The position numbers were made by a program, and so were the translations under genes. The notes beneath the pieces were generated by a model, which saw only the letters and a program-made list of their open reading frames with translations, did no database searches and was not told the DNA's origin. Source: Bacillota bacterium (lineage in GTDB: Bacteria; Bacillota; Proteinivoracia; UBA4975; VEMY01). From it: DNA of 64,000 nt. How positions within the stretch are numbered: position 1 is the stretch's first letter; each line of letters starts with the position of its first letter. Below are positions 30,529 through 64,000 of the stretch, piece by piece. The stretch is from assembly GCA_009711825.1 (NCBI GenBank), contig VEMY01000009.1:14283-78282 (forward strand). Reading direction: 5' to 3'.

Positions 30529-30575
30529 TGTATTGTCGGTAATTTTTAATGGTAAATTAACGAAAGGGTGTGTAA

Positions 30576-31859: not shown

Positions 31860-31869
31860 GGATAGACAA

Positions 31870-31894
31870 GCGGGCAGAAACTCTGCCCGCTTAT
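31870..31894 (+). terminator. Intercistronic hairpin / partial terminator after EIIC
   Basis: GCGGGCAG-aaact-CTGCCCGC followed by TTAT. Confidence 0.5.
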
Positions 31895-31924
31895 AAATAA
31901 ACAATTATTGAAAGGGTGAAGCAG

Positions 31925-32233
31925 ATGAAGATTAAAATGGTTTTGCTCTGCGCGATGGGTATGTCCTCAAGTATGATTGTTAAGAGCATTCTCAGTGCAT
32001 CGGAGCCCCGGGGGTTGGAGATTGAACTGCCTTCTCATCCGGTTGTACATTACAAGGAGCTGGATTATAGTGATGTGGACCTGATTCTGCTAGCACCCCA
32101 GGTGCGGAACCAGAAAAGTGAAATTGAAACATATTGCGAAGGGGTACCAGTTGTTCAAATCGGTATGCGTGAGTATGGGCTAATTAAAGGCGAAGAAATT
32201 CTTGAACAGGCCTTAAAAGAGTTAAAAAAATAA
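31925..32233 (+). CDS. PTS EIIB component (lactose/cellobiose family)
   Basis: MKIKMVLLCAMGMSSSMIV active-site Cys loop. ATG at 31925 is preferred over GTG at 31916 on RBS spacing. Confidence 0.8.
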   Translation: MKIKMVLLCAMGMSSSMIVKSILSASEPRGLEIELPSHPVVHYKELDYSDVDLILLAPQVRNQKSEIETYCEGVPVVQIGMREYGLIKGEEILEQALKELKK

Positions 32234-32254
32234 TTACATCAAGAGGTGTTTGAC

Positions 32255-33262
32255 ATGAATCCATTTGTTCAGGAGATGCTTACTCAGGGTGAGGTCATGC
32301 GTGAGTGTATTAAGCAATATAATTCTGAGAATATAAATAATCAGGAAGCTCTTGATAAAATAAAGTTGTTATTTCAGTCCGATCGGTATAACCGTATAAT
32401 ATTTGCCGGAATGGGCAGTTCTTATTATGCACCTTATTCTGTCGCCGGGTATTTGACCTCACAGGGAATTCCGGCAATTGTTTCTAATGCCTACGAGTTA
32501 TGTCACCATCAATTTGAGTTGTTGTCTGAGGATACACTACTGGTGGTTGTGTCTCAATCTGGGGCATCTCCGGAAGTTGTTGAATTGATTGAAAAAGCTA
32601 AGGCGAGAACTACAGTAGTTGGGATTGTTAATCAACCAACCAGCCCAGTTGCCGCTCGAGTTGATATTTCACTCTTTATGCACTCTGGTTATGAAGCACA
32701 CATTTCCAGTAAAAGTTACTTGTGCACTTTGGTGGTGCTCCAAATGTTAGCACTACATCTAACCGGTGGAGTGAAAGCTCAGCACACTAAATTATTTGAG
32801 GAGATTGCCGATTGGGTATCCGACTACTTGGCAAGATTCACTGATGATACACCTGCATTAGGTGATTTTCTTAATGGGACAACCAGTTATGATTTTTTAG
32901 CTAGCGGTGCTGCTATGAGTTCGGCACGCCAAGCAGCCCTTATATTCCGTGAAGGGCCCTGTGTAACCGCCACAGCAGTAGAAATCTCTGATTTTTCCCA
33001 TGGCTGGGATCTTTCCGTTTCCCCCGGCTACACCGCCTTTATTTTTGACTCTGATGGGAAAAAAGACTCTATAGAGGAAAAAATGAGGAACCACATCATT
33101 GACAAGGGTGGAAAAGTTGTGTTGATTACATCTGCTTCAGTTCAGTCTACAGAATCGCTCATGGTTATCAAGCACCCTAAAGTACAGGAAGATTGGGCGC
33201 CTATGCTGCAGATTATACCTTGTAATACCATCATGGGTTGGTTAATGGGGGCTGAAAGTTAA
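32255..33262 (+). CDS. Double-SIS protein, FrlB/GlmS-isomerase-like (sugar-amine phosphate deglycase/isomerase)
   Basis: About 335 aa. IIFAGMGSSYYA and VVVSQSGASPEVVE are SIS motifs. Size matches FrlB-type proteins. Confidence 0.75.
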   Translation: MNPFVQEMLTQGEVMRECIKQYNSENINNQEALDKIKLLFQSDRYNRIIFAGMGSSYYAPYSVAGYLTSQGIPAIVSNAYELCHHQFELLSEDTLLVVVSQSGASPEVVELIEKAKARTTVVGIVNQPTSPVAARVDISLFMHSGYEAHISSKSYLCTLVVLQMLALHLTGGVKAQHTKLFEEIADWVSDYLARFTDDTPALGDFLNGTTSYDFLASGAAMSSARQAALIFREGPCVTATAVEISDFSHGWDLSVSPGYTAFIFDSDGKKDSIEEKMRNHIIDKGGKVVLITSASVQSTESLMVIKHPKVQEDWAPMLQIIPCNTIMGWLMGAES

Positions 33263-33993
33263 TGATATTTGATGCTCATAATCATATCGGATTTCGCAAA
33301 GGTCTTGAGTATCCTGTAGAAAAGCTAATAGGAGAAATGGATGCCGCTAATATAGACAGGGCTGTGGTTTTTAGTTTTCCTGAACAAATTGATAACGATT
33401 ATGTTGCTGAAAGTGTTAAGAGGTTTTCTGATAGACTAGTGGGGTTCGCTCAGGTTAACCCTTGGAGCCAAGACGCTGAGTTAGTATTAAAGCGTTGCGT
33501 AGAAGACTTGGGTCTAAAAGGCTTAAAATTACACCCTGTGAGACATGGCTATGCCTTTGACAATCACACCATATTGGATCCAATTTTTTCATTGTGTGAG
33601 AGATATTCTATACCAGTTCTTGCATATGGCGGTGCCAATGTATTGAGTAGTCCCAATATGTTCGAGGAAATGGCTCAGACGTTTCCCTCAGTTAATTTCA
33701 TTCTCGCCCACGGCGGCCAAATGTATGAAACGCGGTCTGCAATAGGTGTGGCTAAGCGCAGGCCAAATGTATATATTGAGACTTCGGCGATGTTCGCAAA
33801 TAGAGTCGAATCTTTGTATAAGGAAGTAGGGCCTGAGAAGATTGTTATGGGGACAGATAAACCATATGGTGATTTCGCAATCGAACTGGAGAAAATTCAA
33901 CTGGTGATTGCTGAGCCAGAAGTCAGAGAAAGAATTACTTGCCACAATTTGAGAAAACTGTTGGGTGAAAAGGTGATGAACTATGATTATTGA
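33262..33993 (+). CDS. Amidohydrolase-2 (TIM-barrel metal-dependent hydrolase/lactonase-like), copy 1
   Basis: 243 aa. MIFDAHNHIG metal-binding start, LKGLKLHP, ILAHGG and GTDKPYG blocks. TAATG coupling to the upstream gene. Confidence 0.7.
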   Translation: MIFDAHNHIGFRKGLEYPVEKLIGEMDAANIDRAVVFSFPEQIDNDYVAESVKRFSDRLVGFAQVNPWSQDAELVLKRCVEDLGLKGLKLHPVRHGYAFDNHTILDPIFSLCERYSIPVLAYGGANVLSSPNMFEEMAQTFPSVNFILAHGGQMYETRSAIGVAKRRPNVYIETSAMFANRVESLYKEVGPEKIVMGTDKPYGDFAIELEKIQLVIAEPEVRERITCHNLRKLLGEKVMNYDY

Positions 33994-34711
33994 TTCTCAT
34001 AACCATCTTGGTACACGAAAAGGGGAGCATTTTCCCATCGAAGAGTTGCTTAAGTGGCTTGAAAACGCAGGGGTTGATGCCTGCGTGGTCACTACTCATC
34101 CAGAGGCAATTAATAATGATTATGTGGCGGAAGCTCAAGCTAATTACTCTGACCGCATCATTGGGTTTGCGGTAGTTAATCCTTGGGATTGGGAGGCTGA
34201 AAGTGAGTTAGAACGTTGCCTAGGAACCCTTAATCTTAAAGGACTTAAGTTGAATCCTATCCGACATGGCTACGCATTAGACAGGCATCAAATTGTCGAT
34301 CCGTTATTTGCGATTTGCGAAAAATACCATGTACCTGTCCTATGTCATGGGGGTTCGGATTTGTTTACGATGCCTGGGAAATTTGCGGAGATGGCGGCCA
34401 GTTTCCCGAAAGTTCCGCTAATTCTTGCCCATATCGGCGAACCGGACGCTGTGGAAAGTGCTATACAGGTTGCCAAGCGTTATGACAATGTCTATGTTGA
34501 TACTGCTGGCATTAGGCTAGATACGTTGAAACAGGCTATCGAGCACTTGGACCCTGAGAAGATTTTAATGGGTACCGATGCATCTTGGGGTCGGTTCGAA
34601 TTGTCGATGGAGTTGGTCCGGAAAGCAACTTCAGACCAAAGAACAAGACAATTAATAATGGGTGAAAACATCGCAAAATTGTTATCTTGGCCCGTAAGTG
34701 AAAGGAGCTAA
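33983..34711 (+). CDS. Amidohydrolase-2, copy 2 (tandem paralog)
   Basis: 242 aa. MIIDSHNHLG, LKGLKLNP, ILAHIG and GTDASWG are collinear with copy 1. 11-nt overlap with copy 1. Confidence 0.7.
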   Translation: MIIDSHNHLGTRKGEHFPIEELLKWLENAGVDACVVTTHPEAINNDYVAEAQANYSDRIIGFAVVNPWDWEAESELERCLGTLNLKGLKLNPIRHGYALDRHQIVDPLFAICEKYHVPVLCHGGSDLFTMPGKFAEMAASFPKVPLILAHIGEPDAVESAIQVAKRYDNVYVDTAGIRLDTLKQAIEHLDPEKILMGTDASWGRFELSMELVRKATSDQRTRQLIMGENIAKLLSWPVSERS

Positions 34712-34714
34712 CTT

Positions 34715-35041
34715 ATGAATCTTCAGGAACTCGAAGCCGTGTGCATGGAGATGATTGCTAACGCCGGCGAAGGCAGGTCAAAGGTCTTGGAGGCTGCAGA
34801 TTGTTTTGCTGATGGAAACCCACAACGAGGCGCACAGTTATTAGAAGAAGCAGAGAAGCACATACATGATGCTCATCAAATACAGTTTTTAAAACTTTTG
34901 CAACCTCAGGCTGCGGGTGAGACAATTCCGTTTCACTTGCTTCTGATTCATGCTATGGATTTGTTGATGATGGCAATGTCAGAAAAAACATTGGTTGAGA
35001 AGATGGTTAGGATGAACAAGTCAGATACGGGGGGCTCTTAG
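34715..35041 (+). CDS. PTS EIIA component (lactose/cellobiose family)
   Basis: 108 aa helical protein. EMIANAGEGRSKVLEA...HDAHQIQ contains the conserved His context. Confidence 0.8.
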   Translation: MNLQELEAVCMEMIANAGEGRSKVLEAADCFADGNPQRGAQLLEEAEKHIHDAHQIQFLKLLQPQAAGETIPFHLLLIHAMDLLMMAMSEKTLVEKMVRMNKSDTGGS

Positions 35042-35397
35042 TGAAAATAGGAAGAAAAATTGTAGAAAAACCGTGGGGTACTGAGGAATGGATTGCGCAT
35101 AATGAATTTTACGTGTTAAGAATCCTCAATATCAAGAAAGGTGCCCGGGTTAGTCTGCAGTATCATGAGCAAAAAGTTGAGAGTCTTTATATTGATAAGG
35201 GCTCCGCCATCTATACGTTTCAACGCCCCGGAGGTGAGGTGGAGGAACGGATAATTAAGGCCGGGGATATCCTGGAGCATCGTCCGTATGAGATCCACCG
35301 TGAAGAGGCTTTGGAAGATATGAGAATCATTGAAGTCTCCACTCCAGAGATAGATGATATAATTCGGTTGGATGACGATTATGGCCGAAAATCTTAA
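35041..35397 (+). CDS. Cupin-domain protein (type II mannose-6-P-isomerase C-terminal-like)
   Basis: 118 aa. KPWGTEEW...GARVSLQYHEQKVESLYIDKGSA cupin motif. Confidence 0.65.
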   Translation: MKIGRKIVEKPWGTEEWIAHNEFYVLRILNIKKGARVSLQYHEQKVESLYIDKGSAIYTFQRPGGEVEERIIKAGDILEHRPYEIHREEALEDMRIIEVSTPEIDDIIRLDDDYGRKS

Positions 35398-35456
35398 TAT
35401 AGCTTAACGGGGTCTGAAACAGGCTCCGTTATTATTATTGAGGAAGGTGAAAATAT

Positions 35457-36578
35457 TTGAAAACTCTTAGAATAGGAATGTTAGGTTTTGGGAATATTGC
35501 AAAAGTTCATGCTCTTGCCATTGAAGCAATGCCCTATATACTTGATAACGTAAGTTATGTTCCTTCAATTAAAAAAATCTATAAACCAGGAAAGCTCAAG
35601 AACAGATGGTTGCAGTCAAAGCATGTATCCAATATAGAAGCGATTGTTGAAGATAAAAAAATTGATATTGTTGATATATGCAGTCCGAATAGCGCACACA
35701 GGCAACAGGCTTGTACAGCGATTCAAAAAGGTAAAGCAGTATACCTGGAAAAGCCATTAGGATTAAACCTTAATGAAGCCAAACAGATTACTGACGCGTT
35801 AGGTTGCTGGGGTCCAGTGTTGAATCAGGTTGCTTTTATGTACAGGTTCATGCCAGCGATGGTTGCATTGCGTGATCTTGTGCAAGATGGACAATTAGGT
35901 GAGATCTTTAACTTTCGATTTGATGCTCTGCATTCCAGCTATTTAAGCGAAGAAAGAGCTTTAGGCTGGAAGTTGAATGCAAAGGAGTCTGGGGGAGGAC
36001 CACTGCTAGATTTAGGAGTGCACCTTGCCGATTCAATTCGCTTCTGTCTCGGAGAAATAAAGACAGTATCTACTACACTAGGGACTGTTGTCAAGGAGCG
36101 TCCTTTGGCAGATGGCTCTCGTGGAACAGTGGACGTTGAGGACTGGGCATATGTCAATATGAGGTTAAGGAATGGTGCTAGGGGAATATTGAACGTTTCC
36201 CGGGTTGCCGCGCTTGCGGAAGAGCGCACGACGTTTGAGGTTTACGGAAGTCTGGGTAGCGCACTTTTCGAAATCCGGCAGCCTCGTTCGCTTCGCGTGT
36301 TCAGGCATAAAATTGGAAAAGAAGAACTAGTCGCTAACCCTGTTTATTCCGATTGGGGGGAATACCTGTCAACAATATATCCTCCCAAAAAGCTGTCCCT
36401 AGGCTGGTTGGCTGACGCACACTTCGCTAGCATGGCGAACACATTTAACAGCTTCACTGCAGGAGAGATTCTAAGAAAGGAAGCCCCTGATTTCCATGAG
36501 GCGAGAATGTCTCAAGCTGTTATAGAGGCTGCTTACACTTCTGCTGTTAGAAGTGCCCCTGTAGAGGTTAGCAATTAA
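35457..36578 (+). CDS. Gfo/Idh/MocA-family NAD(P)-dependent oxidoreductase
   Basis: 373 aa. LRIGMLGFGNIAKVH Rossmann start and the AVYLEKPL motif. Confidence 0.8.
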   Translation: MKTLRIGMLGFGNIAKVHALAIEAMPYILDNVSYVPSIKKIYKPGKLKNRWLQSKHVSNIEAIVEDKKIDIVDICSPNSAHRQQACTAIQKGKAVYLEKPLGLNLNEAKQITDALGCWGPVLNQVAFMYRFMPAMVALRDLVQDGQLGEIFNFRFDALHSSYLSEERALGWKLNAKESGGGPLLDLGVHLADSIRFCLGEIKTVSTTLGTVVKERPLADGSRGTVDVEDWAYVNMRLRNGARGILNVSRVAALAEERTTFEVYGSLGSALFEIRQPRSLRVFRHKIGKEELVANPVYSDWGEYLSTIYPPKKLSLGWLADAHFASMANTFNSFTAGEILRKEAPDFHEARMSQAVIEAAYTSAVRSAPVEVSN

Positions 36579-36694: not shown

Positions 36695-38077
36695 TTAGTG
36701 ACCGGGCTTATACTCCCAGACGGTACCTTCCTTGGTGTCCTTGACCACGACACCCCGCTCTGCCAACTGGTCCCTGAGCTCATCGGATTTGGCCCAGTCT
36801 TTGTTGGCCCGGGCCTGGTTCCGCTCTTCCAGCATGGCCGCCAGCTCTGCCGGTAGCTCTGCTTGCTCCTGGGCAACTTCCTGGTCCAGCTTCAGGCCTA
36901 AGATTTCATCGAAGCGGGCGATAAGGGCCCTGCTGCCCGGCTCGCCGGATTTAACCGCTTCCCAGGCGTAGGAGAGGGCCAAGGGCACGTTGAGATCATC
37001 ATTTATCGCGGCGTTAAACTTATCCAGCAGCTGCTGGTTGGGGGCAGCATTATCTTCCGGCAGCTTCTGGAACCCTTGCCGCAACCGCTTCAGCGAGACC
37101 TGGGCTGATTCGAGGATATCCCAGGTAAAGTTCAGCGGCGTGCGGTAGTGGGCGTTCAGGCAGAGGTAACGGAAGGCCAGCGGGTCATAATTTCTTTTCA
37201 CCACGTCGGTGATTGTATAGAAATTGTTTAAGCTCTTGGACATCTTGCCGCCGTCTACCTGGAGAAACTCGCCATGAAGCCAGTAGTTGACCCACTGCTT
37301 GCCGGTATAGGACTCGGTCTGGGCAATCTCGTTCTCATGGTGAATGGGAATGTGATCGATGCCGCCGGTATGGATGTCAATTTGTTTACCCAAATACTTC
37401 ATCGCCATGGCCGAGCACTCGATATGCCAGCCCGGATATCCCGGCCCCCAAGGGCTGGGCCACTGCATAATATGGGTGGGCGGCGCATCCTTCCAGAGGG
37501 CGAAGTCCGCCGGGTGCCGCTTCTTATCGTTTACTTCAATCCGGGCGCCGGCCTGGAGCTCCTCCAGGCGGTTGCCCGAGAGCTTGCCGTACTGCTCCTG
37601 TTTCTGGACATCGAAATATATCCCGTCACCTTCAATTCGGTAGGCAAAGCCCTTTTCCAGCAGGCCCTGGGTAAGCTCGATCATCTCCTGAATATGGTCG
37701 GTGGCCTTGCAGATGATGGTCGGCCGCTTGATGTTTAAATACTCGCTCTGCTGCATAAAATTCCCTGTGTAATACTCGGCCAGCTCCCAGGGAGTTTTCT
37801 TCTTTTCCCGGGCGCTTTCCACCATTTTGTCCTCGCCCTCATCGGCGTCAGACTGCAGGTGCCCCACATCGGTTATGTTCATGACATGGGTTACTTCCAG
37901 GCCATTATATTCCAGAACCCGGCGCAATAGGTCGGCAAAGACATACGAGCGCATATTTCCGATATGGGCATAATCGTAGACCGTGGGACCGCAGACATAC
38001 ATGCCCGCTTTCCCCGGAACAAGGGGCTTAAAGACCTCCTTGGAACGACTGAGGGTATTGTATAATTTCATCTCCAT
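36695..38077 (-). CDS. cysS: Cysteine--tRNA ligase
   Basis: HIGH-type motif [14 protein letters not shown] motif GKMSKSLNN, and CysRS blocks GWHIECSAM and [11 protein letters not shown] at 38077 lies 9 nt after AAGGAGG. Confidence 0.95.
36702..36737 (-). repeat. Right direct repeat (authentic cysS 3' end)
   Basis: See 29503-29538. Confidence 0.8.
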
Positions 38078-38225
38078 ATGACGCATCCTCCTTAGGGCAT
38101 ATCTTATCTGTACTCAATATTTTTGGCAACAGTCACGGGCAAAAAAGGAGCGCTTATCCTTTCTTGTTCCGGACATTTTTGTTATACTCGTAAGCAACAC
38201 TCTTCTTGGTAAAGGGGGCGGAAAG

Positions 38226-55272: not shown

Positions 55273-55794
55273 ATGTCAGGGAAATTGGGTGCAGTACTGA
55301 AAAGGTTATTTATGGTCGCCTTGGTAGCTGTCATGGTGCTTTCGATTGTTTATTCAATTCAGTTCTACCGTGTAACCGATAATGTTCAGAGGCGTTTTGT
55401 CCTCAATAGTCAAGGTGCATATGCTCAACTATCAAATGCAATCCGAATGGTTGAGGCAGGAAGTCTTCATAGTGCTGTATGGTATTTGACTGATGCCAGA
55501 ACATATGCGTTTTCCAATCATCAAGTTTTGTCCGAAAGTGGTATTTTCTCAGGAGTATGGTTCTTTAAGCCCGTTTCTCATGAGGCAATAATTCTAACAG
55601 ATGACACTATACAGGCCGTTGATAGTGCTATGACGGGGTTTTATAATGGCAGCGGCGAACTGAACCCGGGGGATATGGCGCGGATTGAGCAAATCCGCGA
55701 AAAGTATAAAGCCTTTCTGGATTATATCGACATTTCATCAGAGCCATCTTACTTTACACTGAGGCGTAAGTTAAGAGATTATGCCAGTCCTTAA
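55273..55794 (+). CDS. Hypothetical protein with single N-terminal TM helix
   Basis: 173 aa, RBS GAGGGGG. TM LFMVALVAVMVLSIVYSIQFY. No recognisable domain. Confidence 0.5.
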   Translation: MSGKLGAVLKRLFMVALVAVMVLSIVYSIQFYRVTDNVQRRFVLNSQGAYAQLSNAIRMVEAGSLHSAVWYLTDARTYAFSNHQVLSESGIFSGVWFFKPVSHEAIILTDDTIQAVDSAMTGFYNGSGELNPGDMARIEQIREKYKAFLDYIDISSEPSYFTLRRKLRDYASP

Positions 55795-55879: not shown

Positions 55880-55925
55880 GAAATGAAAGGATATTCAGGC
55901 AAAATGTAGAATTATCTTACTATGT
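55880..55925 (+). repeat. Promoter-like 45-nt repeat, copy 2 (upstream of the PLD-helicase gene)
   Basis: GAAATGAAAGGATATTCAGGCAAAATGTAGAATTATCTTACTATGT. Same -35 / extended -10 layout as copy 1. Confidence 0.65.
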
Positions 55926-55960
55926 CACGGGTTTGGTTTAAAATTGATAGGGGTGGTTTA

Positions 55961-58312
55961 GTGCGTAACTCCATCGTTGGTCTTGATGACCACCTTATTT
56001 TGCATCTGAGTGATTCCATCAGGCGGGCAAGGCGCATCCGCTTTATTGTCGCGTTCTTAATGGAGTCTGGATCCAAATTGTTGGCAAGCTATCTGGCAGA
56101 AGCAGCCCAGAGGGGTGTACCCATCCAGATTCTCACTGGCAAGTATATGAGCATCACTGAGCCCTCAGCAATATACCACTTGTATAATGTGCTGGGTAAC
56201 AATGTAGAAATCCGTTTCTTCGATGAGAAGGTTCGGTCTTTCCACCCCAAAGCTTATTTGTTCGATTACGACGATGACAGCGAAATTATAATTGGGTCAT
56301 CGAACATATCCCACTCCGCGCTGACAACAGGTGTGGAATGGAATTACCGGTTTAAAAAGAGCATCGCTCCTGAAGACTATGAGATTTTTAGCAGAACATT
56401 TGATGATATGTTTGCCAACCGCTCTGTCCCCGCAACAGCTAAAGAGTTGACCGCATACTCCTTGAACTGGCGGAAGCCGAGATTAGTAGTAGTTGAGTCT
56501 CCTACTGCTTTACCTGAGGCCCCAGAGCCCTTTGGTGCCCAGGTAGAGGCTTTATACCACCTGAACCGAGCCCGAGAAGAGGGAATTGACAAGGGACTTG
56601 TTGTGGCTGCCACCGGGGTGGGTAAAACCTATCTTAGTGCATTCGACTCAGAGAAGTTTAAACGGGTTTTGTTTGTGGCTCACAGGGAAGAAATTCTACG
56701 CCAAACCGAAGCCACCTACAGAACTGTTAGACCAAATGCACACATCGGCTATTACACGGGTACCCAAAAAGACGAGCGTATGGATGTTTGCTTGGCTACG
56801 GTCCAGACCTTGGGCAGGGAGAATCATCTGCTCAACTTCCCACCGGATTACTTTGATTACATGGTTGTTGATGAATTCCATCATGCCGCAGCTGACAGTT
56901 ATGTGCGGATAATAGAGCATTTTAAGCCTGAGTTTCTGCTGGGGCTTACTGCCACACCTTACCGAACTGACAACCGGGACATTTTCGCTCTCTGCGATGA
57001 CAATGTTGTTTATGAACTGTACCTTAAAGATGCCATCAACAGGGACATGCTGGTACCGTTTCGATACTACGGCATTTATGATGCCACCGACTATTCGGGA
57101 ATTGCTGTCAGAAACGGTCAGTATGTAGTAGAAGAGCTGGAGAAAGAGCTGTCCCAAAAAGAAAGGGCCAATTTGGTGTTGGAGAAATATAAGGCTCTGG
57201 CTGGCCAAAAGACCCTGGGTTTCTGCGCCAGTATTGCCCATGCAGAATACATGGCTAGATATTTTCAGGAACAGGGGATTGCTGCCTATGCTGTCCACAG
57301 CGGGGAGGATACGGAATATACGCTTGAACGCAAACAAGCTGTGAAGGCGCTGGAAGATGGGAAGATAAAGGTGATATTTGCTGTAGATATATTTAATGAA
57401 GGCGTTGATATCCCTGCTCTGGATACCGTCCTGTTTTTGCGACCGACAGAGTCTTTTGTAGTCTTTCTGCAGCAACTGGGACGGGGGTTACGGAAGTATG
57501 ACGGCAAGGACTATCTGACTGTCTTGGACTTCATTGGCAATTACAAACGTGCCCATTATATTCCTGCCCTGTTGGCGGGGGAGAATCCCCAGGATGAAAG
57601 CGGGCGCAGAAGACGGCCCCAGGAGCAGGAGTATCCAGCAGAATGTCATGTGCAGTTTGATTTCCGTGTTCTGGATCTTTTCCGGGAGATGGTCAAACGG
57701 GACCCGCTCGCTCAACGCATGCGTGATGATTATTACCGGATTAAAGATGAACTGGGCAGGCGGCCTACGAGGGTGGATGTCTACCTGGGTTCTGACATAC
57801 CGATGCGAGAATTCCTTAAACAAGGTTGGTTGGCTTTTCTCAACAGTGTTGAGGATTTAAGTTCTATTGAGCAAGCATGGATTGATACCGAAGCAGAGAA
57901 GTTTTTGATAAATATCGAGAAGACGTCAATGTCCAAGGCCTATAAGTTGCCTACCATCGGTGCTCTGCTGCAGGGCGGGACAATTAGAAAACAGGTCAGT
58001 ATGGACGAGGTTGGTAAACGGTTCATGGATTTCTATGTGAATAAGAAACTGCACCAAAAGGATTTGCAGGATAAGAGCAATCGGAATTGGCCAAAGTGGA
58101 GCCAAGAGCAATTTACGAAACTGGCCCGGAAAAATCCGGTTCACTTCCTGTCCAAAGGCAAGTTCTTTAACTACGACGAGATAAACCGGACTTTCTATCT
58201 GGATTCCGAGCTGGAGGATTATTTATCGCCGGCGCTGGCTGAGCACGTGCAAGATATTCTGGAGTATAAGCGGATTGATTATTTCCGCAAACGTTACCGG
58301 GAGGATGATTAA
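55961..58312 (+). CDS. Fusion protein: PLD (HKD) nuclease domain + SF2 (ResIII/DExH) helicase + DUF3427-like C-terminal domain
   Basis: HKD motif HPKAYLFD...GSSNIS (His codon at 56243). Walker A ATGVGKTY, DExH VVDEFHHAA, TATPYR, QQLGRGLR. C-terminal about 200 aa are DUF3427-like. GTG at 55961 (GGGGTGG 4 nt upstream) is preferred over ATG 55922, which lies inside the promoter repeat. Confidence 0.85.
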   Translation: MRNSIVGLDDHLILHLSDSIRRARRIRFIVAFLMESGSKLLASYLAEAAQRGVPIQILTGKYMSITEPSAIYHLYNVLGNNVEIRFFDEKVRSFHPKAYLFDYDDDSEIIIGSSNISHSALTTGVEWNYRFKKSIAPEDYEIFSRTFDDMFANRSVPATAKELTAYSLNWRKPRLVVVESPTALPEAPEPFGAQVEALYHLNRAREEGIDKGLVVAATGVGKTYLSAFDSEKFKRVLFVAHREEILRQTEATYRTVRPNAHIGYYTGTQKDERMDVCLATVQTLGRENHLLNFPPDYFDYMVVDEFHHAAADSYVRIIEHFKPEFLLGLTATPYRTDNRDIFALCDDNVVYELYLKDAINRDMLVPFRYYGIYDATDYSGIAVRNGQYVVEELEKELSQKERANLVLEKYKALAGQKTLGFCASIAHAEYMARYFQEQGIAAYAVHSGEDTEYTLERKQAVKALEDGKIKVIFAVDIFNEGVDIPALDTVLFLRPTESFVVFLQQLGRGLRKYDGKDYLTVLDFIGNYKRAHYIPALLAGENPQDESGRRRRPQEQEYPAECHVQFDFRVLDLFREMVKRDPLAQRMRDDYYRIKDELGRRPTRVDVYLGSDIPMREFLKQGWLAFLNSVEDLSSIEQAWIDTEAEKFLINIEKTSMSKAYKLPTIGALLQGGTIRKQVSMDEVGKRFMDFYVNKKLHQKDLQDKSNRNWPKWSQEQFTKLARKNPVHFLSKGKFFNYDEINRTFYLDSELEDYLSPALAEHVQDILEYKRIDYFRKRYREDD

Positions 58313-58708
58313 ATGAAGGAATGTATTTTCTGCAAGCTGCCGGAGACAGAGCTGCTTTGCGAGAACGATCTGGCCAGGGCTTTTTATGACAAGTTTCCGG
58401 TAAACGAGGGCCATGTTCTGATAACGCCCAAGCGGCATGTGGTTGATTATTTTGGTGCTACTCCGGAAGAGCTGGCGGCTATAAATGAATTGGTTGCCGA
58501 GGTTAAAGAGATTCTGGACAAAAAATATAACCCCGATGGCTATAACATCGGGGTAAATGTGGGACATGCCGGTGGGCAAACGATATTCCATTTGCACGTT
58601 CATGTGATTCCGAGGTTCGAGGGGGATGTTGAGGATCCTAGGGGTGGGGTCAGGAATTTGAAGCCGAATCTGGTTGAGTATGTCGCTAAAACCACTCAAG
58701 ATTTATAA
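58313..58708 (+). CDS. HIT-family (histidine triad) nucleotide hydrolase/transferase
   Basis: 131 aa. CIFC N-terminal zinc-type motif, NEGHVLITPKRH, and the histidine triad HLHVHVIPR. The ATG directly abuts the helicase TAA. Confidence 0.9.
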   Translation: MKECIFCKLPETELLCENDLARAFYDKFPVNEGHVLITPKRHVVDYFGATPEELAAINELVAEVKEILDKKYNPDGYNIGVNVGHAGGQTIFHLHVHVIPRFEGDVEDPRGGVRNLKPNLVEYVAKTTQDL

Positions 58709-58820
58709 GCCTGTTCGATTACGATAGTGAGGACGGATAGTGGTATCTCTTGAACAGCTTGTCTGCGCACTCTAATTAAAACTCAATTCTTTGCGATAAA
58801 ACTACAAGCATACCTCTACC

Positions 58821-60659
58821 TCACTGATTGCAGATTTCTTTAAAGAAGCCTATGTCTTTATCTTTAAGCGTTCCAACAACTACGCCTCGATCTAACAGAC
58901 GGTTACCAGATTCGCAGCAGGTTTCCGGGAGCAAAGAACAATTGTGACAAGCAGCAAGATTACATGATTCTGGCCCCTGCCCAGCAGACTGAATACAAAT
59001 GGGGTCAGACGTGCACCACTGCGCATTTTTCACAGCATCAACTATGGTATCCTCGATACGACCAGTCTCGCCCTGACGAACCAAGCCGCCAAGCGATCCT
59101 TCAGAATCACCAGAAGCCGTATAAATTAATACCCCATACATTTTGTGTTCATTGTGCGTCTTCTCGCAATAGATACGTTCGCGAAGCGCTGAGCTCCCAT
59201 ACCCGCAGTCAAAGCTAAATTGATTAACTAGCAAATGTGCAAAGGTATGAATTAATACAAATTCAGGGCGAAGATTACCTTCGGCTCTTTGCCCGAAATT
59301 GGATTCTTTGTGTGCGCGATTCAATGTTTCAATACGTTCCCGTACATTTCTTTTTTGCGCCCATCGCTGTAGCTCCTCCACATTAAATTCGAAGAAGATA
59401 CCTTCGCCGTATATTTCAATAGCTGGTAACCAATTCTCGCTACCGGTTCGAAGCAATTTTTTCCTTTCGGACACAGCAGCATCATTTGGTTCCAATCGGG
59501 AGAATCCAACAAATGCACGTGTTTCACGAAGTTTCGGCACCAGTGATATGCTCTTAAAATATCTCCTTATTATCGGATTGTAGCGGTCAATGGGATAATT
59601 TTTCGAGTGAAAGTCCTGCGCATCGCTTCCGCTATCCTTGATTAGTACTTTATACTCCGCAAGGCGGTACTCGTCTTCTGACGTCTCTTCAGTAACATCT
59701 GATATACCTTTGATGTTTGCTTCACGATTAAGGAAAGCCATATAAAGAGTATCGCGCTCAATTCCGAAGTTGTCGGCAAGGTAATTTATTATCTCACGAT
59801 TCCATTCTCCATTGACCCGATGGGTTCTCAGCTTGTTATAATGCAAATCAAGAATACCAACAACCTTACGGCTGGTCGATTCATCGTCCGTTGGGATATG
59901 AATGGAGCTGCGATTATCTGCGAACCAGACATTTGTAGCACCTCTCAGAAGAACTTTTATATCTTCATTGCCGCAAATGTGTTCATCATCACCCTCAATA
60001 CCGAGCCAAGGTTTTGCACCTTTACATATGTAAGCAATTCTTTGAAGGGCGCCTGGGCGGGTTGCGCCGGCAATGGACTTTCTGGCTCCACAAGAACACT
60101 CGTAAAACACACCTGTGAGGGCAGCTGACGTGCCGCCTGTACTCCTGCGGATTTTGCAGGTGTCCGGGCTATATGGATGATCCTCTCCATTGTGCAGCCA
60201 TTCGGCCACGGGAAAATCATCAATATGCCCCTCGGGACATACTACTACAAAACGTTCTGGCACCAGCTTTTTCTTCCTGTACTTCGGGTTACATTTTCTA
60301 CCATTCGGCCATTGGTGACCATCACATTCTGGGTGTGGTTCATAGTAGGTGGTTTTGCGCATGGTTCCACAAAAGGGGCAATAATGCCAAGTTGGGAATC
60401 TAACAGCAGGTATCTTAAGGTGACAATTTTCCGGATCTGCGTTGTGTTCTCTGAAATCTGGTGGCCAGCGCAACTCTTTTACGCCAAGTCTTTTTTGCAA
60501 ACGCTCATCCTCAATAAGGAAAGGATGAATGTTATTATATCGCCACATATCAAGTCCGGCAATCATCAACGACTCATCGTTTGGGAATGGGACAATGGCA
60601 CCTACTCCCCACGGACCAATTAAGGCACTTCGCCGAATAGGTCTGTTTGAATATGCCAT
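58821..60659 (-). CDS. DUF1998-domain protein, DISARM DrmB-like
   Basis: 612 aa from ATG 60659 (AAGGAGG within the end of the upstream gene). N-terminus RRSALIGPWGVGAIVPF...GLDMW, zinc-ribbon-like CPFCGT, VVVCPEGHIDDFPVAEW, and C-terminal CNLAACHNCSLLPETCCESGNRLLDR, the DUF1998 Cys cluster. Confidence 0.8.
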   Translation of the reverse strand: MAYSNRPIRRSALIGPWGVGAIVPFPNDESLMIAGLDMWRYNNIHPFLIEDERLQKRLGVKELRWPPDFREHNADPENCHLKIPAVRFPTWHYCPFCGTMRKTTYYEPHPECDGHQWPNGRKCNPKYRKKKLVPERFVVVCPEGHIDDFPVAEWLHNGEDHPYSPDTCKIRRSTGGTSAALTGVFYECSCGARKSIAGATRPGALQRIAYICKGAKPWLGIEGDDEHICGNEDIKVLLRGATNVWFADNRSSIHIPTDDESTSRKVVGILDLHYNKLRTHRVNGEWNREIINYLADNFGIERDTLYMAFLNREANIKGISDVTEETSEDEYRLAEYKVLIKDSGSDAQDFHSKNYPIDRYNPIIRRYFKSISLVPKLRETRAFVGFSRLEPNDAAVSERKKLLRTGSENWLPAIEIYGEGIFFEFNVEELQRWAQKRNVRERIETLNRAHKESNFGQRAEGNLRPEFVLIHTFAHLLVNQFSFDCGYGSSALRERIYCEKTHNEHKMYGVLIYTASGDSEGSLGGLVRQGETGRIEDTIVDAVKNAQWCTSDPICIQSAGQGPESCNLAACHNCSLLPETCCESGNRLLDRGVVVGTLKDKDIGFFKEICNQ

Positions 60660-60661
60660 TT

Positions 60662-63600
60662 CTAGTCCTCCTTTGTCGTATATCGGTTGGCGAGCACATC
60701 TGCTTCGCAAGATGCATCTACACTGCGCATGGATGACGGGGTTTCCATACCACGTTGCCCCCAAGCTTCATTCCTGTGACCTCCAGCAAAATACATCAAC
60801 GGCACAACATTACCATAAGACCAGTCCCTGTTACGCTCTGGCTCCCATTTCTGAGGATTCCAATCCTCCCAACGCTGGATGATGTGTTCCATTTGTGTAA
60901 GAGTGGCTTCCAACTCGTCAGGGTCAATAGCCTCGATTCGGTTTTCAATAACTTGGCGTATATGATTGTAAAGAGCCTCATCTGGCAGGTGTGGAGGGTC
61001 AGCATTGAAAGCTGCATCGCCCTTCAATCGCATCATACCAATCATTATTGCATGGAGGGCCCGCTCCCGAACCGGAGCAGAGAATGGGGTAACACTGGTC
61101 GGCTCTACATTGCAATATACACGAGAATGATATCCCTTAAAATGCTCATAGTGTGATTTATCTCTCGGCCTGCCTGGACGATACAGGACAAACACAATAC
61201 CTGGAGCTTTTGCAGGATTTCGGCCTACGCGGCTGGTCGCCTGTATATATTCAGACGTGGTCTTTGGCTGACCTGCAACCGTCATTAGACCTAATCTCGG
61301 AACATCTAGGCCAACAGAAATCATGTTGGTTGCCAGACAGATGTCAATAGGATGTTCTCTGACCTTTCCGTTTTCATCAAGCTCTGCCGGGTATCGAGTG
61401 TTCAGATTCGCTAGGCTGGCTGTAACTTTATCTCCAGCGATCCGACTGGTCAGTTCTTCGTCGCAATAAATGTATCTCCTACGCTTATTATATTCCTCTT
61501 TGGAGTACCGCTTATTGTAATATCTGCGCTTGTACATCACGTCAAGATGCTGATCGATGTCTGCGCGAATCCAGGTGGCGGCTTGTCCGAGCTCGCGAAT
61601 ACTGTTGAAGTAGCCCACGTTGGTCCAATAAGGATCTCTGTGGGTTTCGTCGCCAACATCCATTGCTTTGGCACCATACAACAAAGCCGAAAACAGACGT
61701 ATGGCCGTCGTGGTGTCCGAGGGGGAGCCAGTGGCCAAGATTCCAACATATTGACGACCATTTTGCTTCCGATCTTCCTTAGCAAAAAAGGAATTCCCTG
61801 CATCAAGGCCGGAAGGAGGGAACTGGAATACCTTACTGGTCCCACAACCATACAGTGAATGACACTGCTCCTTTGCACGACTGATTGTAGCCGTAGAGGC
61901 GATCACCTTCGGACGAATTTCCCTGCCGTTCGCTCTTGTTGTGCACAACTCGCTTATCAATGTCTCATAATGACCAACCATAGAGCCTAACGGGCCTGCA
62001 ATCAGATGCAGCTCGTCCTGAATGATAAGGTCAGGAGATGTCACCTTTATCCCGTCCTTATATCCAAAGAGGCCCTGTGCCTGAGGACGAAAAGGGAGCA
62101 TAGCAAACTTATCCACAGTCCCCAAAAGCAATGTGGGTGTGGATTCATAAATGCTATCATCTATAACATACATAGGAAGAGCATAGCTGCCTGTAGAGAA
62201 ATCACAAGCATTTTCTGTATTTCTGCACTGAAAAATGATCCTGTATTTGCCTTGTTGTCCTCTGGCTTTTCTATATCCAGGAGTCTCATAGATACCATGC
62301 TTTCGCTCAACAACTCCCATTTGCGCACCGCACCAAGGGCATTTGAGCACGACAAAAGGGTTGCTGCCGCCACTGTTTTTCATTTTATTGTATTTCTTCA
62401 CGGCATCATCCATTTTGTTAGGGGTCGTCGTGCCACCAACCCATAATCCAATACTGATCCTCGCCTTCCCATACAAATCTTCGTGATCTCTCCGAATCAG
62501 GTCGCAGGCGCAAATCATAGCAGCTGCACGTTCGTACTGTTGTGCTGTCAATAATCGCAACGTATATCTCATCAGGATGGCCGTTCCGGAATCATTCTTG
62601 TCCATAAGCCTTCTGATAAAAATCGCATAGGCCGACAGCCCAAGATAGGCCTCGGTTTTTCCTCCGCCGGTGGGAAACCAGATTAAATCAACAATCTCGC
62701 GTTCATCGCAGCTGCGGTCATACATAGAATGTAAATTCATTAGAATAAACGCGAGCTGAAATGGCCTCCATTTACCGTATTTATCCTTTTCTCCATACCA
62801 CGTGTTTTTATCGGTCACAGAAGGCAAGGTTTTTATAGGATCTACAAGGCGAATATCTCGAACTCCGTCATCCTCCCATTTTTGCAGAGGAAGATTATAG
62901 TGCAACTGCTGCATGAGCATGGCGAGATTCATGTGCTGAAAAGCCGTGCGAATCAACTTGTTTTCTTCCAAGAGCTTCACTCCGCTGCGCATACGGTTTA
63001 GGCAGGATTTGCAGTTTTCAATATGCCTTTCGGCCGTGCGGACATATCTGCCCTCCAGCTTTGACTTTTCGATCTCGAGACGGTTAATCCACTTCCCGTA
63101 CTCGGTGCACATGAGTTCCAGTTCGCGGACTGTATCCTCGAAGTCACCATGGGGACTCATTCCACGCATATCAAGTGTTACACCGGGAATAGTGCTCGGA
63201 ACAATAGGCTTTATCTCGTATGAGGGGAACACAGCGGATGAAATCCAGGATACTTTTTCAGCCGATTCGTCCCAATCGGCCGCACATCCATGCCCGATAG
63301 CATAATTGTGTACGTTGCGATAGAGCAGTTGGTTTGAGTCATAATCATTGTCCTGTGTATTGATACGCTGACTATTGGGTAGCGGGCAAAATCCCAGCTC
63401 CGAGTAGAGTTTAAACTTCACCTGAAAGAAACAATCGTCGTCCTTTACGGCATTTCCATCGTTCCTGTTTGTGTTTTCCAAGGTGAAAGTATAAATGGAG
63501 TAATCACCTCTGTTGTAGCGGTACGTCATGTCAAATTGCAGTCCCCGTGTGCCTGAAGGTATTTTGACTATGCCGTCCTGGGGTGATGGTAAATCAATGG

Positions 63601-64000
63601 GTTTTCCCTCATTATTCCAGAAGATTGCCCTTCGAGGGTATCGAACAATATCATTACCAGTAACCTTATCGGCCAATTTCAAAGTAGTATATACGCCTGC
63701 AGAGACCTCAATGTGAATTGTATCATTCTTTTTGAGAGCAGCGGTTAGGCTGATTGCCGACTGTCTATATGCATTGGAACGATTAATCAGCTCTTCGGCA
63801 TCCTCAAGATACTCTGTGCCATCTCCCGACCCTTTAGTCCAAGAATCAGGCTCTCCGGGATCTTCACGATCGTCTCCTCCGGCTTCTATTCCTTCTTCTT
63901 CCCGCGTTTCGGCATCACTATCAGTTGTCTTATGAGGAAATAGTACTCCTGCAATATAGCGAGTACGTGGCGGGTCAGTCATAAGAACTTCTTCACCATT
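60662..64000 (-). CDS. Large SF2 helicase, DISARM DrmA-like (probably 5'-truncated by the window edge)
   Basis: Motif I WFPTGGGKTEAYL (62651-62680), motif II IIQDELHL (62006-62017 region), ASTATIS, QATSRVGR. N-terminal RYIAGVLFP region. First in-window ATG is at 63982, but the frame stays open to nt 64000 and that ATG has no good RBS. Confidence 0.8.
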   Translation of the reverse strand, partial: NGEEVLMTDPPRTRYIAGVLFPHKTTDSDAETREEEGIEAGGDDREDPGEPDSWTKGSGDGTEYLEDAEELINRSNAYRQSAISLTAALKKNDTIHIEVSAGVYTTLKLADKVTGNDIVRYPRRAIFWNNEGKPIDLPSPQDGIVKIPSGTRGLQFDMTYRYNRGDYSIYTFTLENTNRNDGNAVKDDDCFFQVKFKLYSELGFCPLPNSQRINTQDNDYDSNQLLYRNVHNYAIGHGCAADWDESAEKVSWISSAVFPSYEIKPIVPSTIPGVTLDMRGMSPHGDFEDTVRELELMCTEYGKWINRLEIEKSKLEGRYVRTAERHIENCKSCLNRMRSGVKLLEENKLIRTAFQHMNLAMLMQQLHYNLPLQKWEDDGVRDIRLVDPIKTLPSVTDKNTWYGEKDKYGKWRPFQLAFILMNLHSMYDRSCDEREIVDLIWFPTGGGKTEAYLGLSAYAIFIRRLMDKNDSGTAILMRYTLRLLTAQQYERAAAMICACDLIRRDHEDLYGKARISIGLWVGGTTTPNKMDDAVKKYNKMKNSGGSNPFVVLKCPWCGAQMGVVERKHGIYETPGYRKARGQQGKYRIIFQCRNTENACDFSTGSYALPMYVIDDSIYESTPTLLLGTVDKFAMLPFRPQAQGLFGYKDGIKVTSPDLIIQDELHLIAGPLGSMVGHYETLISELCTTRANGREIRPKVIASTATISRAKEQCHSLYGCGTSKVFQFPPSGLDAGNSFFAKEDRKQNGRQYVGILATGSPSDTTTAIRLFSALLYGAKAMDVGDETHRDPYWTNVGYFNSIRELGQAATWIRADIDQHLDVMYKRRYYNKRYSKEEYNKRRRYIYCDEELTSRIAGDKVTASLANLNTRYPAELDENGKVREHPIDICLATNMISVGLDVPRLGLMTVAGQPKTTSEYIQATSRVGRNPAKAPGIVFVLYRPGRPRDKSHYEHFKGYHSRVYCNVEPTSVTPFSAPVRERALHAIMIGMMRLKGDAAFNADPPHLPDEALYNHIRQVIENRIEAIDPDELEATLTQMEHIIQRWEDWNPQKWEPERNRDWSYGNVVPLMYFAGGHRNEAWGQRGMETPSSMRSVDASCEADVLANRYTTKED

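What the first reader, a model, noticed from the sequence alone, without database searches (positions are those of the whole stretch)
58821..64000. DISARM-like DrmA/DrmB core with no DrmC or methyltransferase downstream
Seen: a helicase of more than 1100 aa (GGGKTEAYL, DELH, QATSRVGR) is followed 2 nt later by a 612-aa protein ending in the DUF1998 Cys cluster (CNLAACHNCSLLPETCCESGNRLLDR). Both lie in about 40-45% G+C DNA. Downstream of the DrmB-like gene there is only a 112-nt spacer and then the convergent HIT/helicase genes, so no PLD (DrmC) or methylase gene follows on this strand. Established: DrmA (helicase) + DrmB (DUF1998) are the conserved core of DISARM. Class 2 places DrmC and DrmMII after DrmB, while class 1 places the SNF2 protein DrmD and the DrmMI methylase before DrmA. 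Inference: this is either a class-1-type system whose upstream half lies beyond nt 64000 and which lacks DrmC, or a methylase-less DrmAB variant that may work with the neighbouring PLD-helicase in place of DrmC.
Basis: partly seen in the sequence, partly recalled or inferred. Interest (0 to 1): 0.7.

Follow-up and report, generated by a model that had tools for sequence, protein, structure and literature searches.

The report
DISARM operon cut by window edge
The two genes are genuine DrmA and DrmB of a DISARM anti-phage system. The "missing" methylase and partner genes most likely lie just beyond the window edge, so this is a class-2-type DISARM without DrmC, not a stripped-down or class-1 system.

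Summary
Window 58821-60659(-) is DrmB, and 60662 to beyond 64000(-) is DrmA. DrmA is 1143 aa in full, and its first 31 codons lie outside the window.

The DNA is 91% identical to a relative (L003) right up to nt 64000. In 18 of 18 relatives with upstream sequence, drmA is preceded by a NERD-nuclease/SF1-helicase gene and drmE. A C5 methylase (DrmMII) is present in 17 of those 18.

A DrmE protein (MTI94708.1), 86% identical to L003's, is recorded on a single 157,136-bp contig. DrmA also scores better against the short (DrmAS) model than the long (class 1) model. So this is the tail of a class-2-type operon, not class 1 and not methylase-less.

No PLD DrmC gene occurs in any relative, and DrmC-less DISARM is already documented.

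The 112-nt "spacer" holds a decayed 27-codon remnant of an accessory gene ("p339") that follows drmB in many relatives.

The neighbouring PLD-helicase is SauUSI-like, is always paired with the HIT gene, and occurs elsewhere without DISARM. It does share a C-terminal domain with p339, which leaves a weak case for a functional link.

Overall this is a modest variant of a known system.

The parts
60662..64000 (-). drmA, the SF2/YprA-family helicase of DISARM. The window holds codons 32-1143 plus the stop. The start codon lies about 93 nt beyond the window edge.
   Evidence: PADLOC DrmA 2.5e-220. NCBIfam DrmAS 929.6 bits against a cut-off of 950, and DrmAL 615 bits. PDB 7s9v_A 7e-136. P0001 is 1143 aa with an N-terminus conserved in P0002. 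Motifs GGGKTEAYL, DELH and QATSRVGR and the CxxC...C zinc motifs are present.
58821..60659 (-). drmB, 612 aa, the OB-CON-DUF1998/MZB zinc-cluster partner of DrmA. It starts 2 nt after the drmA stop.
   Evidence: PADLOC DrmB 3.5e-68 over its full length. Pfam MZB 31.2 bits against a cut-off of 24.2. NCBIfam DrmB_fam 454 bits against a cut-off of 240. PDB 7s9v_B 5e-71.
58731..58811 (-). Pseudogene remnant (27 codons, in-frame stop at codon 12) of the accessory gene 'p339', which follows drmB in relatives. It keeps the same ribosome-binding site 9 nt after the drmB stop.
   Evidence: tblastn of L002 p339 gives 67% identity over 27 aa, E 9.6e-6. The remnant reads MLVVLSQRIEF*LECADKLFKRYHYPS, against MIVVLSQRIDIQSEYEDELFKTYHYPS in L002. 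Identity to L003 (91% at the DNA level) ends at 58782.
58313..58708 (+). HIT-family hydrolase, 131 aa, with an intact HLHVHV triad. Its ATG directly follows the PLD-helicase stop codon. It belongs to a neighbouring, separate two-gene module.
   Evidence: Pfam HIT 7.6e-26. Sequence. The same pairing occurs in L003, L020-L023 and L024.
55922..58312 (+). SauUSI-like PLD (HKD) nuclease plus ResIII/SF2 helicase, 796 aa. Its C-terminal domain (about residues 656-794) is homologous to the C-terminal domain of p339. It is a neighbouring module, convergent with drmB.
   Evidence: PDB 7clg_A 7.5e-95 over residues 24-562. PADLOC mREase_IV 2e-101. Pfam PLDc_2, ResIII and Helicase_C. HKD motif HPKAYLFD...GSSN. 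The C-terminal domain matches p339 by hhalign at 96.4% probability, E 1.4e-9, and by reciprocal HMM hits.

Best explanation
The window ends inside a DISARM operon transcribed on the minus strand. It contains only the last two genes, drmA (an SF2 helicase of the YprA family) and drmB (the separately encoded OB-CON-DUF1998 zinc module).

The proximal genes lie beyond nt 64000. By comparison with L003, which is 91% identical at the DNA level, they are most likely a C5 cytosine methylase (DrmMII), DrmE, and a 580-aa protein that overlaps the drmA start. That 580-aa protein joins a NERD (PD-(D/E)xK) nuclease domain to an SF1/UvrD-like helicase.

The mechanism is inferred by homology to the studied systems:
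- DrmA and DrmB form a 1:1 complex that loads on single-stranded ends or 5' overhangs of incoming DNA and translocates using ATP.
- DrmMII methylation marks the host's own DNA.
- DrmE is an essential partner of unknown role.

This lineage has no PLD DrmC gene. I infer that DNA cleavage, if it occurs, is carried out by the conserved NERD nuclease-helicase.

An accessory gene (p339) that follows drmB in many relatives has decayed here to a 27-codon remnant. Next to that scar sits an independent SauUSI-like PLD-helicase plus HIT module, making a small defence island that begins near 55.2 kb.

Shown directly: the identity of DrmA and DrmB, the truncation at the window edge, the p339 remnant, the operon structure in relatives, and a DrmE recorded on a contig of the same length as the window's. 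Inferred: adjacency of DrmE, the NERD-helicase and DrmMII in this genome, and all biochemical steps.
For: - DrmA and DrmB identity.
- True drmA start outside the window.
- Nucleotide identity of 91% to L003 from nt 64000 down to 58782.
- Operon in relatives: DrmE and the NERD-helicase in 18/18, the C5 methylase in 17/18, AIPR in 15/18 (absent from L003), and p339 or its N-terminal half in 11/19. Three further close relatives (L028-L030) show the same core.
- DrmE on the window's contig: P0242 (MTI94708.1, FH749_04345) is 86% identical to L003 DrmE and has a Pfam DrmE_C hit of 36.7 bits. It is recorded on one contig of 157,136 bp, the same length and sources as the window's P0001 and P0121.
- NERD domain: Pfam NERD 38.2 bits against a cut-off of 22.1. 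The D...ExK motif (GE.DF...ALEVKGG) is invariant in 17 homologues. PADLOC NERD-helicase models hit at 1e-41.
- No HKD/PLD reading frame within 10 kb either side in the 19 relatives, apart from L003's PLD-helicase.
- Literature: DrmC is dispensable and often missing, and DrmAB loads on 5' overhangs (PMC9142583). Class 2 comprises DrmMII with or without DrmE, and drmA, drmB and drmE are essential (bioRxiv 10.1101/2021.12.28.474362).
Against: - The sequence beyond nt 64000 could not be read. The window's own contig is withheld from the look-up tools.
- Adjacency of DrmE, and the presence of the NERD-helicase and DrmMII in this genome, rest on synteny and on a match of contig lengths.
- DrmA scores just below NCBIfam's DrmAS equivalog cut-off (929.6 against 950).
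- PADLOC's DrmE models do not detect this DrmE. The lineage is therefore divergent from the reference class 2 system, and transferring the mechanism to it is an assumption.
- The absence of DrmC in relatives was tested only by an HKD motif scan and by annotating the larger genes.
- No experiment links the NERD nuclease to DISARM.
Confidence: 0.8

Rival explanations
1. DrmAB cooperates here with the neighbouring SauUSI-like PLD-helicase (plus HIT). In this reading the PLD-helicase supplies the nuclease that DrmC provides in canonical DISARM, or replaces the lost p339 accessory.
For: - The PLD-helicase's C-terminal domain is homologous to the C-terminal domain of p339, the gene that normally follows drmB: hhalign 96.4%, E 1.4e-9, with reciprocal HMM hits of 1e-9 to 1e-6.
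- In L029 a different nuclease-ResIII-helicase carrying the p339-type C-terminal domain sits in the operon directly after drmB.
- The two genomes with a decayed p339 remnant (the window and L003) both have a PLD-helicase plus HIT module next to DISARM, apparently acquired separately.
- The PLD domain hits PADLOC DrmC weakly, at 1.8e-6.
- Bravo et al. proposed that DrmAB may recruit alternative PLD nucleases (PMC9142583).
Against: - The module is convergent with drmB, not co-transcribed with it.
- It occurs without any DISARM in L020-L024.
- Only 1 of 19 representative relatives, and none of 3 further close relatives, has it.
- Eight relatives lack p339 and have no PLD-helicase nearby.
- Its closest solved relative, SauUSI, is an autonomous restriction enzyme.
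Confidence: 0.13
2. A decayed or orphan DrmAB pair: the upstream genes have been lost or disrupted in this genome, so the pair is non-functional or acts without a methylase.
For: The downstream accessory gene has already decayed. DrmAB pairs with no adjacent methylase exist on plasmids, for example in B. toyonensis and Nostoc. The region beyond nt 64000 was not read.
Against: Both reading frames are intact and 91% identical to L003's. The conserved drmA N-terminus continues beyond the window. An intact 861-aa DrmE is on a contig of the same length. All 18 relatives with upstream sequence keep the upstream genes.
Confidence: 0.04
3. A class 1 DISARM (SNF2 DrmD plus N6 methylase DrmMI upstream) that lacks DrmC.
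For: DrmA and DrmB are clearly homologous to the class 1 Serratia proteins.
Against: DrmA fits DrmAS better than DrmAL, 930 against 615 bits, and is 1143 aa against 1325 aa for Serratia DrmA. None of the 18 relatives has a DrmD or DrmMI. All have DrmE, which PADLOC treats as prohibited in type I (PMC9252829).
Confidence: 0.02
4. An MrfA/YprA-like DNA-repair helicase pair rather than a defence system.
For: The Pfam domain in DrmB is named for MrfA (MZB).
Against: The best matches are DISARM-specific profiles with very strong scores. A helicase split from its DUF1998 module into separate genes is the DISARM hallmark (Bell et al. 2025). There is no MrfB-type exonuclease. The pair sits in a defence-gene neighbourhood.
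Confidence: 0.01

Closest known systems
Class 2 DISARM (Bacillus paralicheniformis type: drmE, drmA, drmB, drmC, drmMII; Ofir et al. 2018, as summarised in the papers read)
   Same: A split DrmA helicase and DrmB DUF1998 pair. A DrmE-family protein (NCBIfam DrmE_fam 454 bits in relatives, and DrmE_C in the protein on the window's contig). A C5 cytosine methylase that matches PADLOC DrmMII at 1e-165 in relatives. A short-form DrmA.
   Different: No PLD DrmC. The methylase lies at the 5' end of the operon instead of the 3' end. An extra NERD-nuclease/SF1-helicase gene lies between drmE and drmA in all relatives. An AIPR (MzaE-like) gene is present in most relatives, though not in the closest one. 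A p339 accessory follows drmB and is decayed here. DrmA scores just under the DrmAS equivalog cut-off, and PADLOC's DrmE models miss this DrmE.
Class 1 DISARM of Serratia sp. SCBI (DrmAB structures 7S9V and 7S9W)
   Same: DrmA (7e-136) and DrmB (5e-71, full length) are homologous. The mechanism of loading on single-stranded DNA ends is borrowed from this system.
   Different: Class 1 has SNF2 DrmD, the N6 methylase DrmMI, and a longer DrmA (1325 aa) with an N-terminal EVE-like domain and trigger loop. None of these is seen in the relatives here.
ARMADA type II (ArmABCD; Bell et al. 2025, and PMC13463889)
   Same: A DISARM-related system that lacks DrmC and includes an essential UvrD/GajB-like helicase (ArmD). 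The NERD-SF1 helicase here also hits GajB models, at 1e-9 to 1e-12.
   Different: In ARMADA the YprA helicase is fused to DUF1998 and to Vsr-type nuclease domains, and the system uses an SNF2 helicase and an adenine methylase. Here the helicase and DUF1998 module are split, and the partners are DrmE and a C5 methylase.
SauUSI (PDB 7CLG), a type IV modification-dependent restriction enzyme. This comparison is for the neighbouring gene at 55922-58312.
   Same: An N-terminal single-HKD PLD nuclease plus an SF2 helicase, alignable over residues 24-562 (7.5e-95).
   Different: The C-terminal region is not the DUF3427/SRA-like reader. It is a helical domain with no significant PDB fold match, and it is homologous to the C-terminus of p339. 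The protein is always paired with a HIT hydrolase and often sits beside C5 methylases.

Membership tests
DISARM (core) | DrmA: an SF2 helicase of the YprA family | tested here: met
   PADLOC DrmA 2.5e-220. PDB 7s9v_A 7e-136. Helicase motifs I, II and VI are present.
DISARM (core) | DrmB: a DUF1998/MZB protein encoded as a separate gene directly after drmA | tested here: met
   2-nt gap between the genes. PADLOC DrmB 3.5e-68. Pfam MZB above its cut-off. NCBIfam DrmB_fam 454 bits against a cut-off of 240. PDB 7s9v_B 5e-71.
DISARM (core) | DrmC: a PLD-domain nuclease gene following drmB | tested here: not met
   After drmB there is only a 27-codon remnant of a non-PLD gene and then convergent genes. 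No HKD reading frame occurs near the operon in the 19 relatives. DrmC is reported as dispensable and often absent (PMC9142583).
DISARM (core) | A DNA methyltransferase in the operon | not testable with these tools
   The region beyond nt 64000 could not be retrieved. In relatives a C5 methylase is present in 17/18, matching PADLOC DrmMII at 1e-165.
DISARM class 2 | A DrmE-family protein | tested here: met
   P0242 (MTI94708.1) has Pfam DrmE_C at 36.7 bits against a cut-off of 27, and is 86% identical to L003 DrmE. It is on a single 157,136-bp contig, as are the window's proteins. Its position next to drmA is inferred from 18/18 relatives.
DISARM class 2 | Short-form DrmA (NCBIfam DrmAS equivalog) | tested here: inconclusive
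   929.6 bits against a curated cut-off of 950. This is the best-scoring model but falls marginally below the cut-off.
DISARM class 1 | SNF2 DrmD, N6 methylase DrmMI, and long-form DrmA | tested here: not met
   DrmAL scores 615 bits against a cut-off of 999. None of the 18 relatives has an SNF2 or N6-methylase gene in the operon. For this genome the upstream genes themselves were not read.
MrfAB/YprAB repair helicases | Helicase fused to DUF1998, with an MrfB exonuclease partner | tested here: not met
   The helicase and DUF1998 module are in separate genes, and no exonuclease partner is present.
SauUSI-type type IV restriction enzyme (neighbouring gene) | PLD nuclease plus SF2 helicase | tested here: met
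   PDB 7clg_A 7.5e-95 over residues 24-562. Pfam PLDc_2, ResIII and Helicase_C.
SauUSI-type type IV restriction enzyme (neighbouring gene) | A C-terminal DUF3427/SRA-like modified-cytosine reader | tested here: not met
   No Pfam hit on residues 540-796 even at E up to 5. The AF2 model (pLDDT 88.7) has no PDB fold match better than E 0.6.

The most novel reading that the evidence does not exclude
This lineage may be a distinct DISARM subtype with the gene order drmMII-(AIPR)-drmE-NERD/SF1 helicase-drmA-drmB-(p339). In it, a PD-(D/E)xK NERD nuclease-helicase would have replaced the PLD nuclease DrmC as effector. The position after drmB would be an exchangeable docking slot for proteins that carry a shared, uncharacterised C-terminal domain: p339, a nuclease-ResIII helicase in L029, and the SauUSI-like PLD-helicase here and in L003. 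If so, the neighbouring PLD-helicase plus HIT module would be functionally plugged into DISARM rather than merely adjacent.
Probability: 0.15. Interest if true: 0.55.

Novelty: new variant of a known kind. Interest (0 to 1): 0.3.

Why it matters
The apparent oddity, a DrmAB pair with no methylase and no DrmC, is mostly an effect of the window edge combined with a feature of DISARM that is already documented. It should not be ranked as a new minimal system.

What remains of interest is modest. The operon layout is widespread and transferred across phyla (Clostridia, Kosmotogaceae, Paludibacteraceae, Mailhella, Acholeplasmataceae). It differs from both textbook classes by a conserved NERD nuclease-helicase and by variable accessories.

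How DISARM destroys DNA without DrmC is an open question (PMC9142583). A conserved in-operon PD-(D/E)xK nuclease is a concrete, testable candidate. The domain shared between the post-drmB accessory and a free-standing PLD-helicase family gives a handle on how such systems exchange parts.

Tried and rejected
- Megablast of the region and its flanks against E. coli genomes and plasmids found no match, so the source is not enterobacterial.
- Exact look-ups of the window's DrmB, DrmA (1106-aa and 1143-aa forms) and the contig's DrmE returned nothing, so the sequence beyond nt 64000 could not be read.
- Cluster look-ups with L003's NERD-helicase, DrmMII and HIT did not bring in the window genome's orthologues.
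- A metagenome scan with the PLD-helicase found no confirmed relative.
- The Foldseek PDB search with a confident model of the PLD-helicase C-terminus gave only weak winged-helix-like hits (E at least 0.6), so no function was assigned.
- A profile search of p339 against PDB sequences, and Pfam, PADLOC and NCBIfam scans of p339, gave nothing meaningful.
- The terminator scan found no convincing terminator in the 112-nt gap.
- The Ofir et al. 2018 paper is not in the library. Statements about the reference class 2 operon therefore come from later papers that summarise it.
- I considered that the ATG at 63982 is the true start, because relatives align from residue 1-2. I rejected this after seeing the conserved 37-residue extension, and a Val at that position in P0002.
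Full report
**What is in the window**

On the minus strand, a 612-aa gene (58821-60659) follows a long reading frame that ends at 60662 and is still open at nt 64000. The gap between them is 2 nt.

The long protein is DrmA:
- PADLOC DrmA 2.5e-220.
- NCBIfam DISARM_DrmAS 929.6 bits and DrmAL 615 bits.
- The solved Serratia DrmA, 7s9v_A, at 7e-136.

The 612-aa protein is DrmB:
- PADLOC 3.5e-68 over its full length.
- Pfam MZB/DUF1998 above its cut-off.
- NCBIfam DrmB_fam 454 bits against a cut-off of 240.
- 7s9v_B at 5e-71.

**Where drmA starts**

The protein database holds the window's own DrmA as a 1143-aa protein (P0001) from a single contig of 157,136 bp. Its first 37 residues (MSDNRRNQLLSFVERELIGPDPIDWEGLTQDNGEEVL) precede the Met encoded at 63982. 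They are conserved in the 91%-identical P0002, which has Val where the window has that Met. The real start is therefore about 93 nt beyond the window, and the window cuts the operon.

**What lies upstream in relatives**

A scan of species-representative genomes returned 19 loci with DrmA at 62-91% identity. Most are Clostridia MAGs. Others are Kosmotogaceae, Paludibacteraceae, Mailhella, an Acholeplasmataceae and a proteobacterial MAG.

Gene maps and family scans show one conserved operon. In order, its genes are:
- a 425-aa C5 cytosine methylase (PADLOC DrmMII 1e-165);
- an AIPR/MzaE-like protein of about 680 aa;
- a DrmE of about 860 aa (NCBIfam DrmE_fam 454 bits, Pfam DrmE_C);
- a 580-aa helicase;
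- DrmA;
- DrmB;
- often a gene of about 340 aa that I call p339.

Among the 18 loci with upstream DNA, DrmE and the 580-aa helicase are present in 18. The methylase is present in 17. The remaining locus, L008, is cut by the end of its contig inside drmE. AIPR is present in 15 and is absent from the closest relative, L003. Three further close relatives fetched by exact protein look-up show the same core.

The 580-aa protein has an N-terminal NERD domain (Pfam 38.2 bits against a cut-off of 22.1). Its PD-(D/E)xK signature (GE.DF...ALEVKGG) is invariant across 17 homologues. An SF1/UvrD-like helicase domain follows, which hits the PADLOC NERD-helicase and GajB models.

No SNF2 DrmD or N6 methylase DrmMI is present. 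No HKD/PLD reading frame lies within 10 kb either side, except for L003's PLD-helicase.

**Does this apply to the window's genome?**

Two indirect results are strong.
- The window is 91% identical at the nucleotide level to L003, from nt 64000 continuously down to 58782. L003 continues upstream with the NERD-helicase, DrmE and DrmMII.
- A search with L003's DrmE found an 861-aa DrmE (P0242, MTI94708.1, locus tag FH749_04345, 'Firmicutes bacterium'). It is 86% identical and is recorded on exactly one contig of 157,136 bp, from the same sources as the window's P0001 and P0121. It carries the DrmE_C domain.

The simplest reading is that drmE lies on the window's contig just upstream of drmA.

**Class**

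Four lines of evidence point to class 2 rather than class 1:
- DrmE and a C5 methylase are the class 2 markers.
- PADLOC prohibits DrmE in type I.
- DrmA fits the short-form model better than the long class 1 form.
- DrmA is 1143 aa, against 1325 aa for Serratia DrmA.

The lineage is nonetheless not canonical class 2. DrmC is absent, the methylase lies at the 5' end, and the NERD-helicase is an extra conserved gene. DrmA also falls just under the DrmAS cut-off, and PADLOC's DrmE models miss this DrmE.

Absence of DrmC is not new. [quoted passage not shown] Annotated plasmid loci with DrmAB also lack it, in several different contexts. Bell et al. 2025 note many uncharacterised DISARM-like classes.

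**The 112-nt 'spacer'**

Nine nt after the drmB stop, behind the same ribosome-binding site as in L002, the minus strand reads MLVVLSQRIEF*LECADKLFKRYHYPS. Intact p339 genes begin MIVVLSQRIDIQSEYEDELFKTYHYPS. This is a decayed 27-codon remnant of p339. L003 carries an even more decayed copy, and the similarity between the window and L003 breaks at 58782. The junction with the convergent genes is therefore a rearrangement scar, not an operon end designed around those genes.

**The neighbouring PLD-helicase and HIT genes**

The 796-aa protein aligns to SauUSI (7clg_A, 7.5e-95) across its PLD and helicase parts, residues 24-562. It has intact HKD, Walker A, DEFH and motif VI sequences. The HIT protein has an intact histidine triad, and its ATG directly follows the PLD-helicase stop.

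The pair is a module of its own:
- Full-length relatives of the helicase, about 785 aa, are abundant in Bacillota.
- The helicase-HIT pair occurs next to transposases, radical-SAM genes or restriction-modification genes with no DISARM in L020-L024.
- Among the 19 DISARM relatives only L003 has the pair. There it lies at the other end of the operon, in the other orientation, and is only 68% identical at the DNA level. That indicates a separate acquisition.

The flanking genes at 41-55 kb are metabolic, so the defence island starts near 55.2 kb.

**A residual link between the two modules**

The helicase's C-terminal region has no Pfam match. A confident model (pLDDT 88.7) has no significant PDB fold match, so it is not SauUSI's SRA-like reader.

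Its last 135 or so residues are, however, homologous to the C-terminal domain of p339. hhalign gives 96.4% probability and E 1.4e-9, and reciprocal HMM searches give 1e-9 to 1e-6 over the whole domain. In L029 the gene directly after drmB is a 775-aa protein. It has a putative N-terminal endonuclease-like region (judged by eye only), a ResIII helicase, and a p339-type C-terminal domain.

This keeps alive, at low probability, the idea that proteins with this domain work with DrmAB. Against it stand the module's frequent existence without DISARM and the eight relatives that lack both p339 and a PLD-helicase.

**Mechanism**

By homology to the Serratia complex, DrmA and DrmB should form a 1:1 helicase that loads on 5' single-stranded overhangs and translocates with ATP, while methylation marks the host's own DNA. 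In class 2 systems drmA, drmB and drmE are essential, and the C5 methylase protects the host.

For this lineage I propose that the conserved NERD nuclease-helicase provides the cleavage activity that DrmC was assumed to provide. This is an inference from gene order and an intact active site, not a demonstrated fact.

**Verdict**

This is a real DISARM DrmAB pair. The window edge explains the missing genes, the system is class 2-type rather than class 1, and the absence of DrmC is already known in the field. The operon layout with the NERD-helicase, and the shared accessory domain, make it a modest new variant. I found no description of this layout in the papers I could search.

Noticed in passing
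window 58731-58811 (-): A 27-codon pseudogene remnant of the accessory gene that follows drmB in relatives (p339). It has an in-frame stop at codon 12 and keeps its ribosome-binding site. L003 has a more decayed copy.
   Followed up: yes
window 57887-58303 (+), residues about 656-794 of the PLD-helicase; L002:15169-16197 (p339); L029:15230-17557: An uncharacterised C-terminal domain of about 135 aa is shared by three proteins: the SauUSI-like PLD-helicase family, p339, and a nuclease-ResIII helicase that follows drmB in L029. hhalign gives 96.4% probability. There is no Pfam or PDB match.
   Followed up: partly
window 55922-58708 (+); L003:1016-3756; L020-L024: The PLD-helicase is always followed immediately by a HIT-family hydrolase with an intact His triad. 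This was seen in seven loci, and the pair recurs without DISARM. The role of a HIT enzyme beside a PLD nuclease-helicase is unexplained.
   Followed up: partly
L001:8155-9897 and its equivalents in 17 other loci: A conserved 580-aa NERD (PD-(D/E)xK) nuclease plus SF1/UvrD-like helicase lies between drmE and drmA and overlaps the drmA start. It is not part of either published DISARM class.
   Followed up: partly
L001:3495-5534 and its equivalents in 15 of 18 loci: An AIPR-family gene (NCBIfam MzaE 424 bits, below its cut-off; PADLOC MzaE 8e-102) is inserted between drmMII and drmE. It is absent from L003, and only a 34-aa remnant remains in L029.
   Followed up: no
L003:17328-20486: The closest relative carries a second, distant PLD-helicase paralogue (1052 aa, 37% identity to the window's) downstream of DISARM. 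DISARM there is flanked by two such enzymes.
   Followed up: no
window 55273-55794 (+): A 173-aa reading frame directly upstream of the PLD-helicase has no match in Pfam, PADLOC or NCBIfam. It lies at the apparent edge of the defence island.
   Followed up: no
window 29767-36578 (+): A low-G+C stretch (42-44%) encodes a DeoR regulator, a PTS EIIC, a SIS-domain protein, two amidohydrolases and a GFO/IDH/MocA oxidoreductase. This looks like a sugar-utilisation island, and it lies next to cysS (36695-38086).
   Followed up: partly
window 63715-63862 (-), DrmA residues about 47-95 of the window translation: A strongly acidic, low-complexity stretch (DSDAETREEEGIEAGGDDREDPGEPD...EYLEDAEE) lies near the DrmA N-terminus. 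It might play the autoinhibitory 'trigger loop' role described for Serratia DrmA. This was not tested.
   Followed up: no
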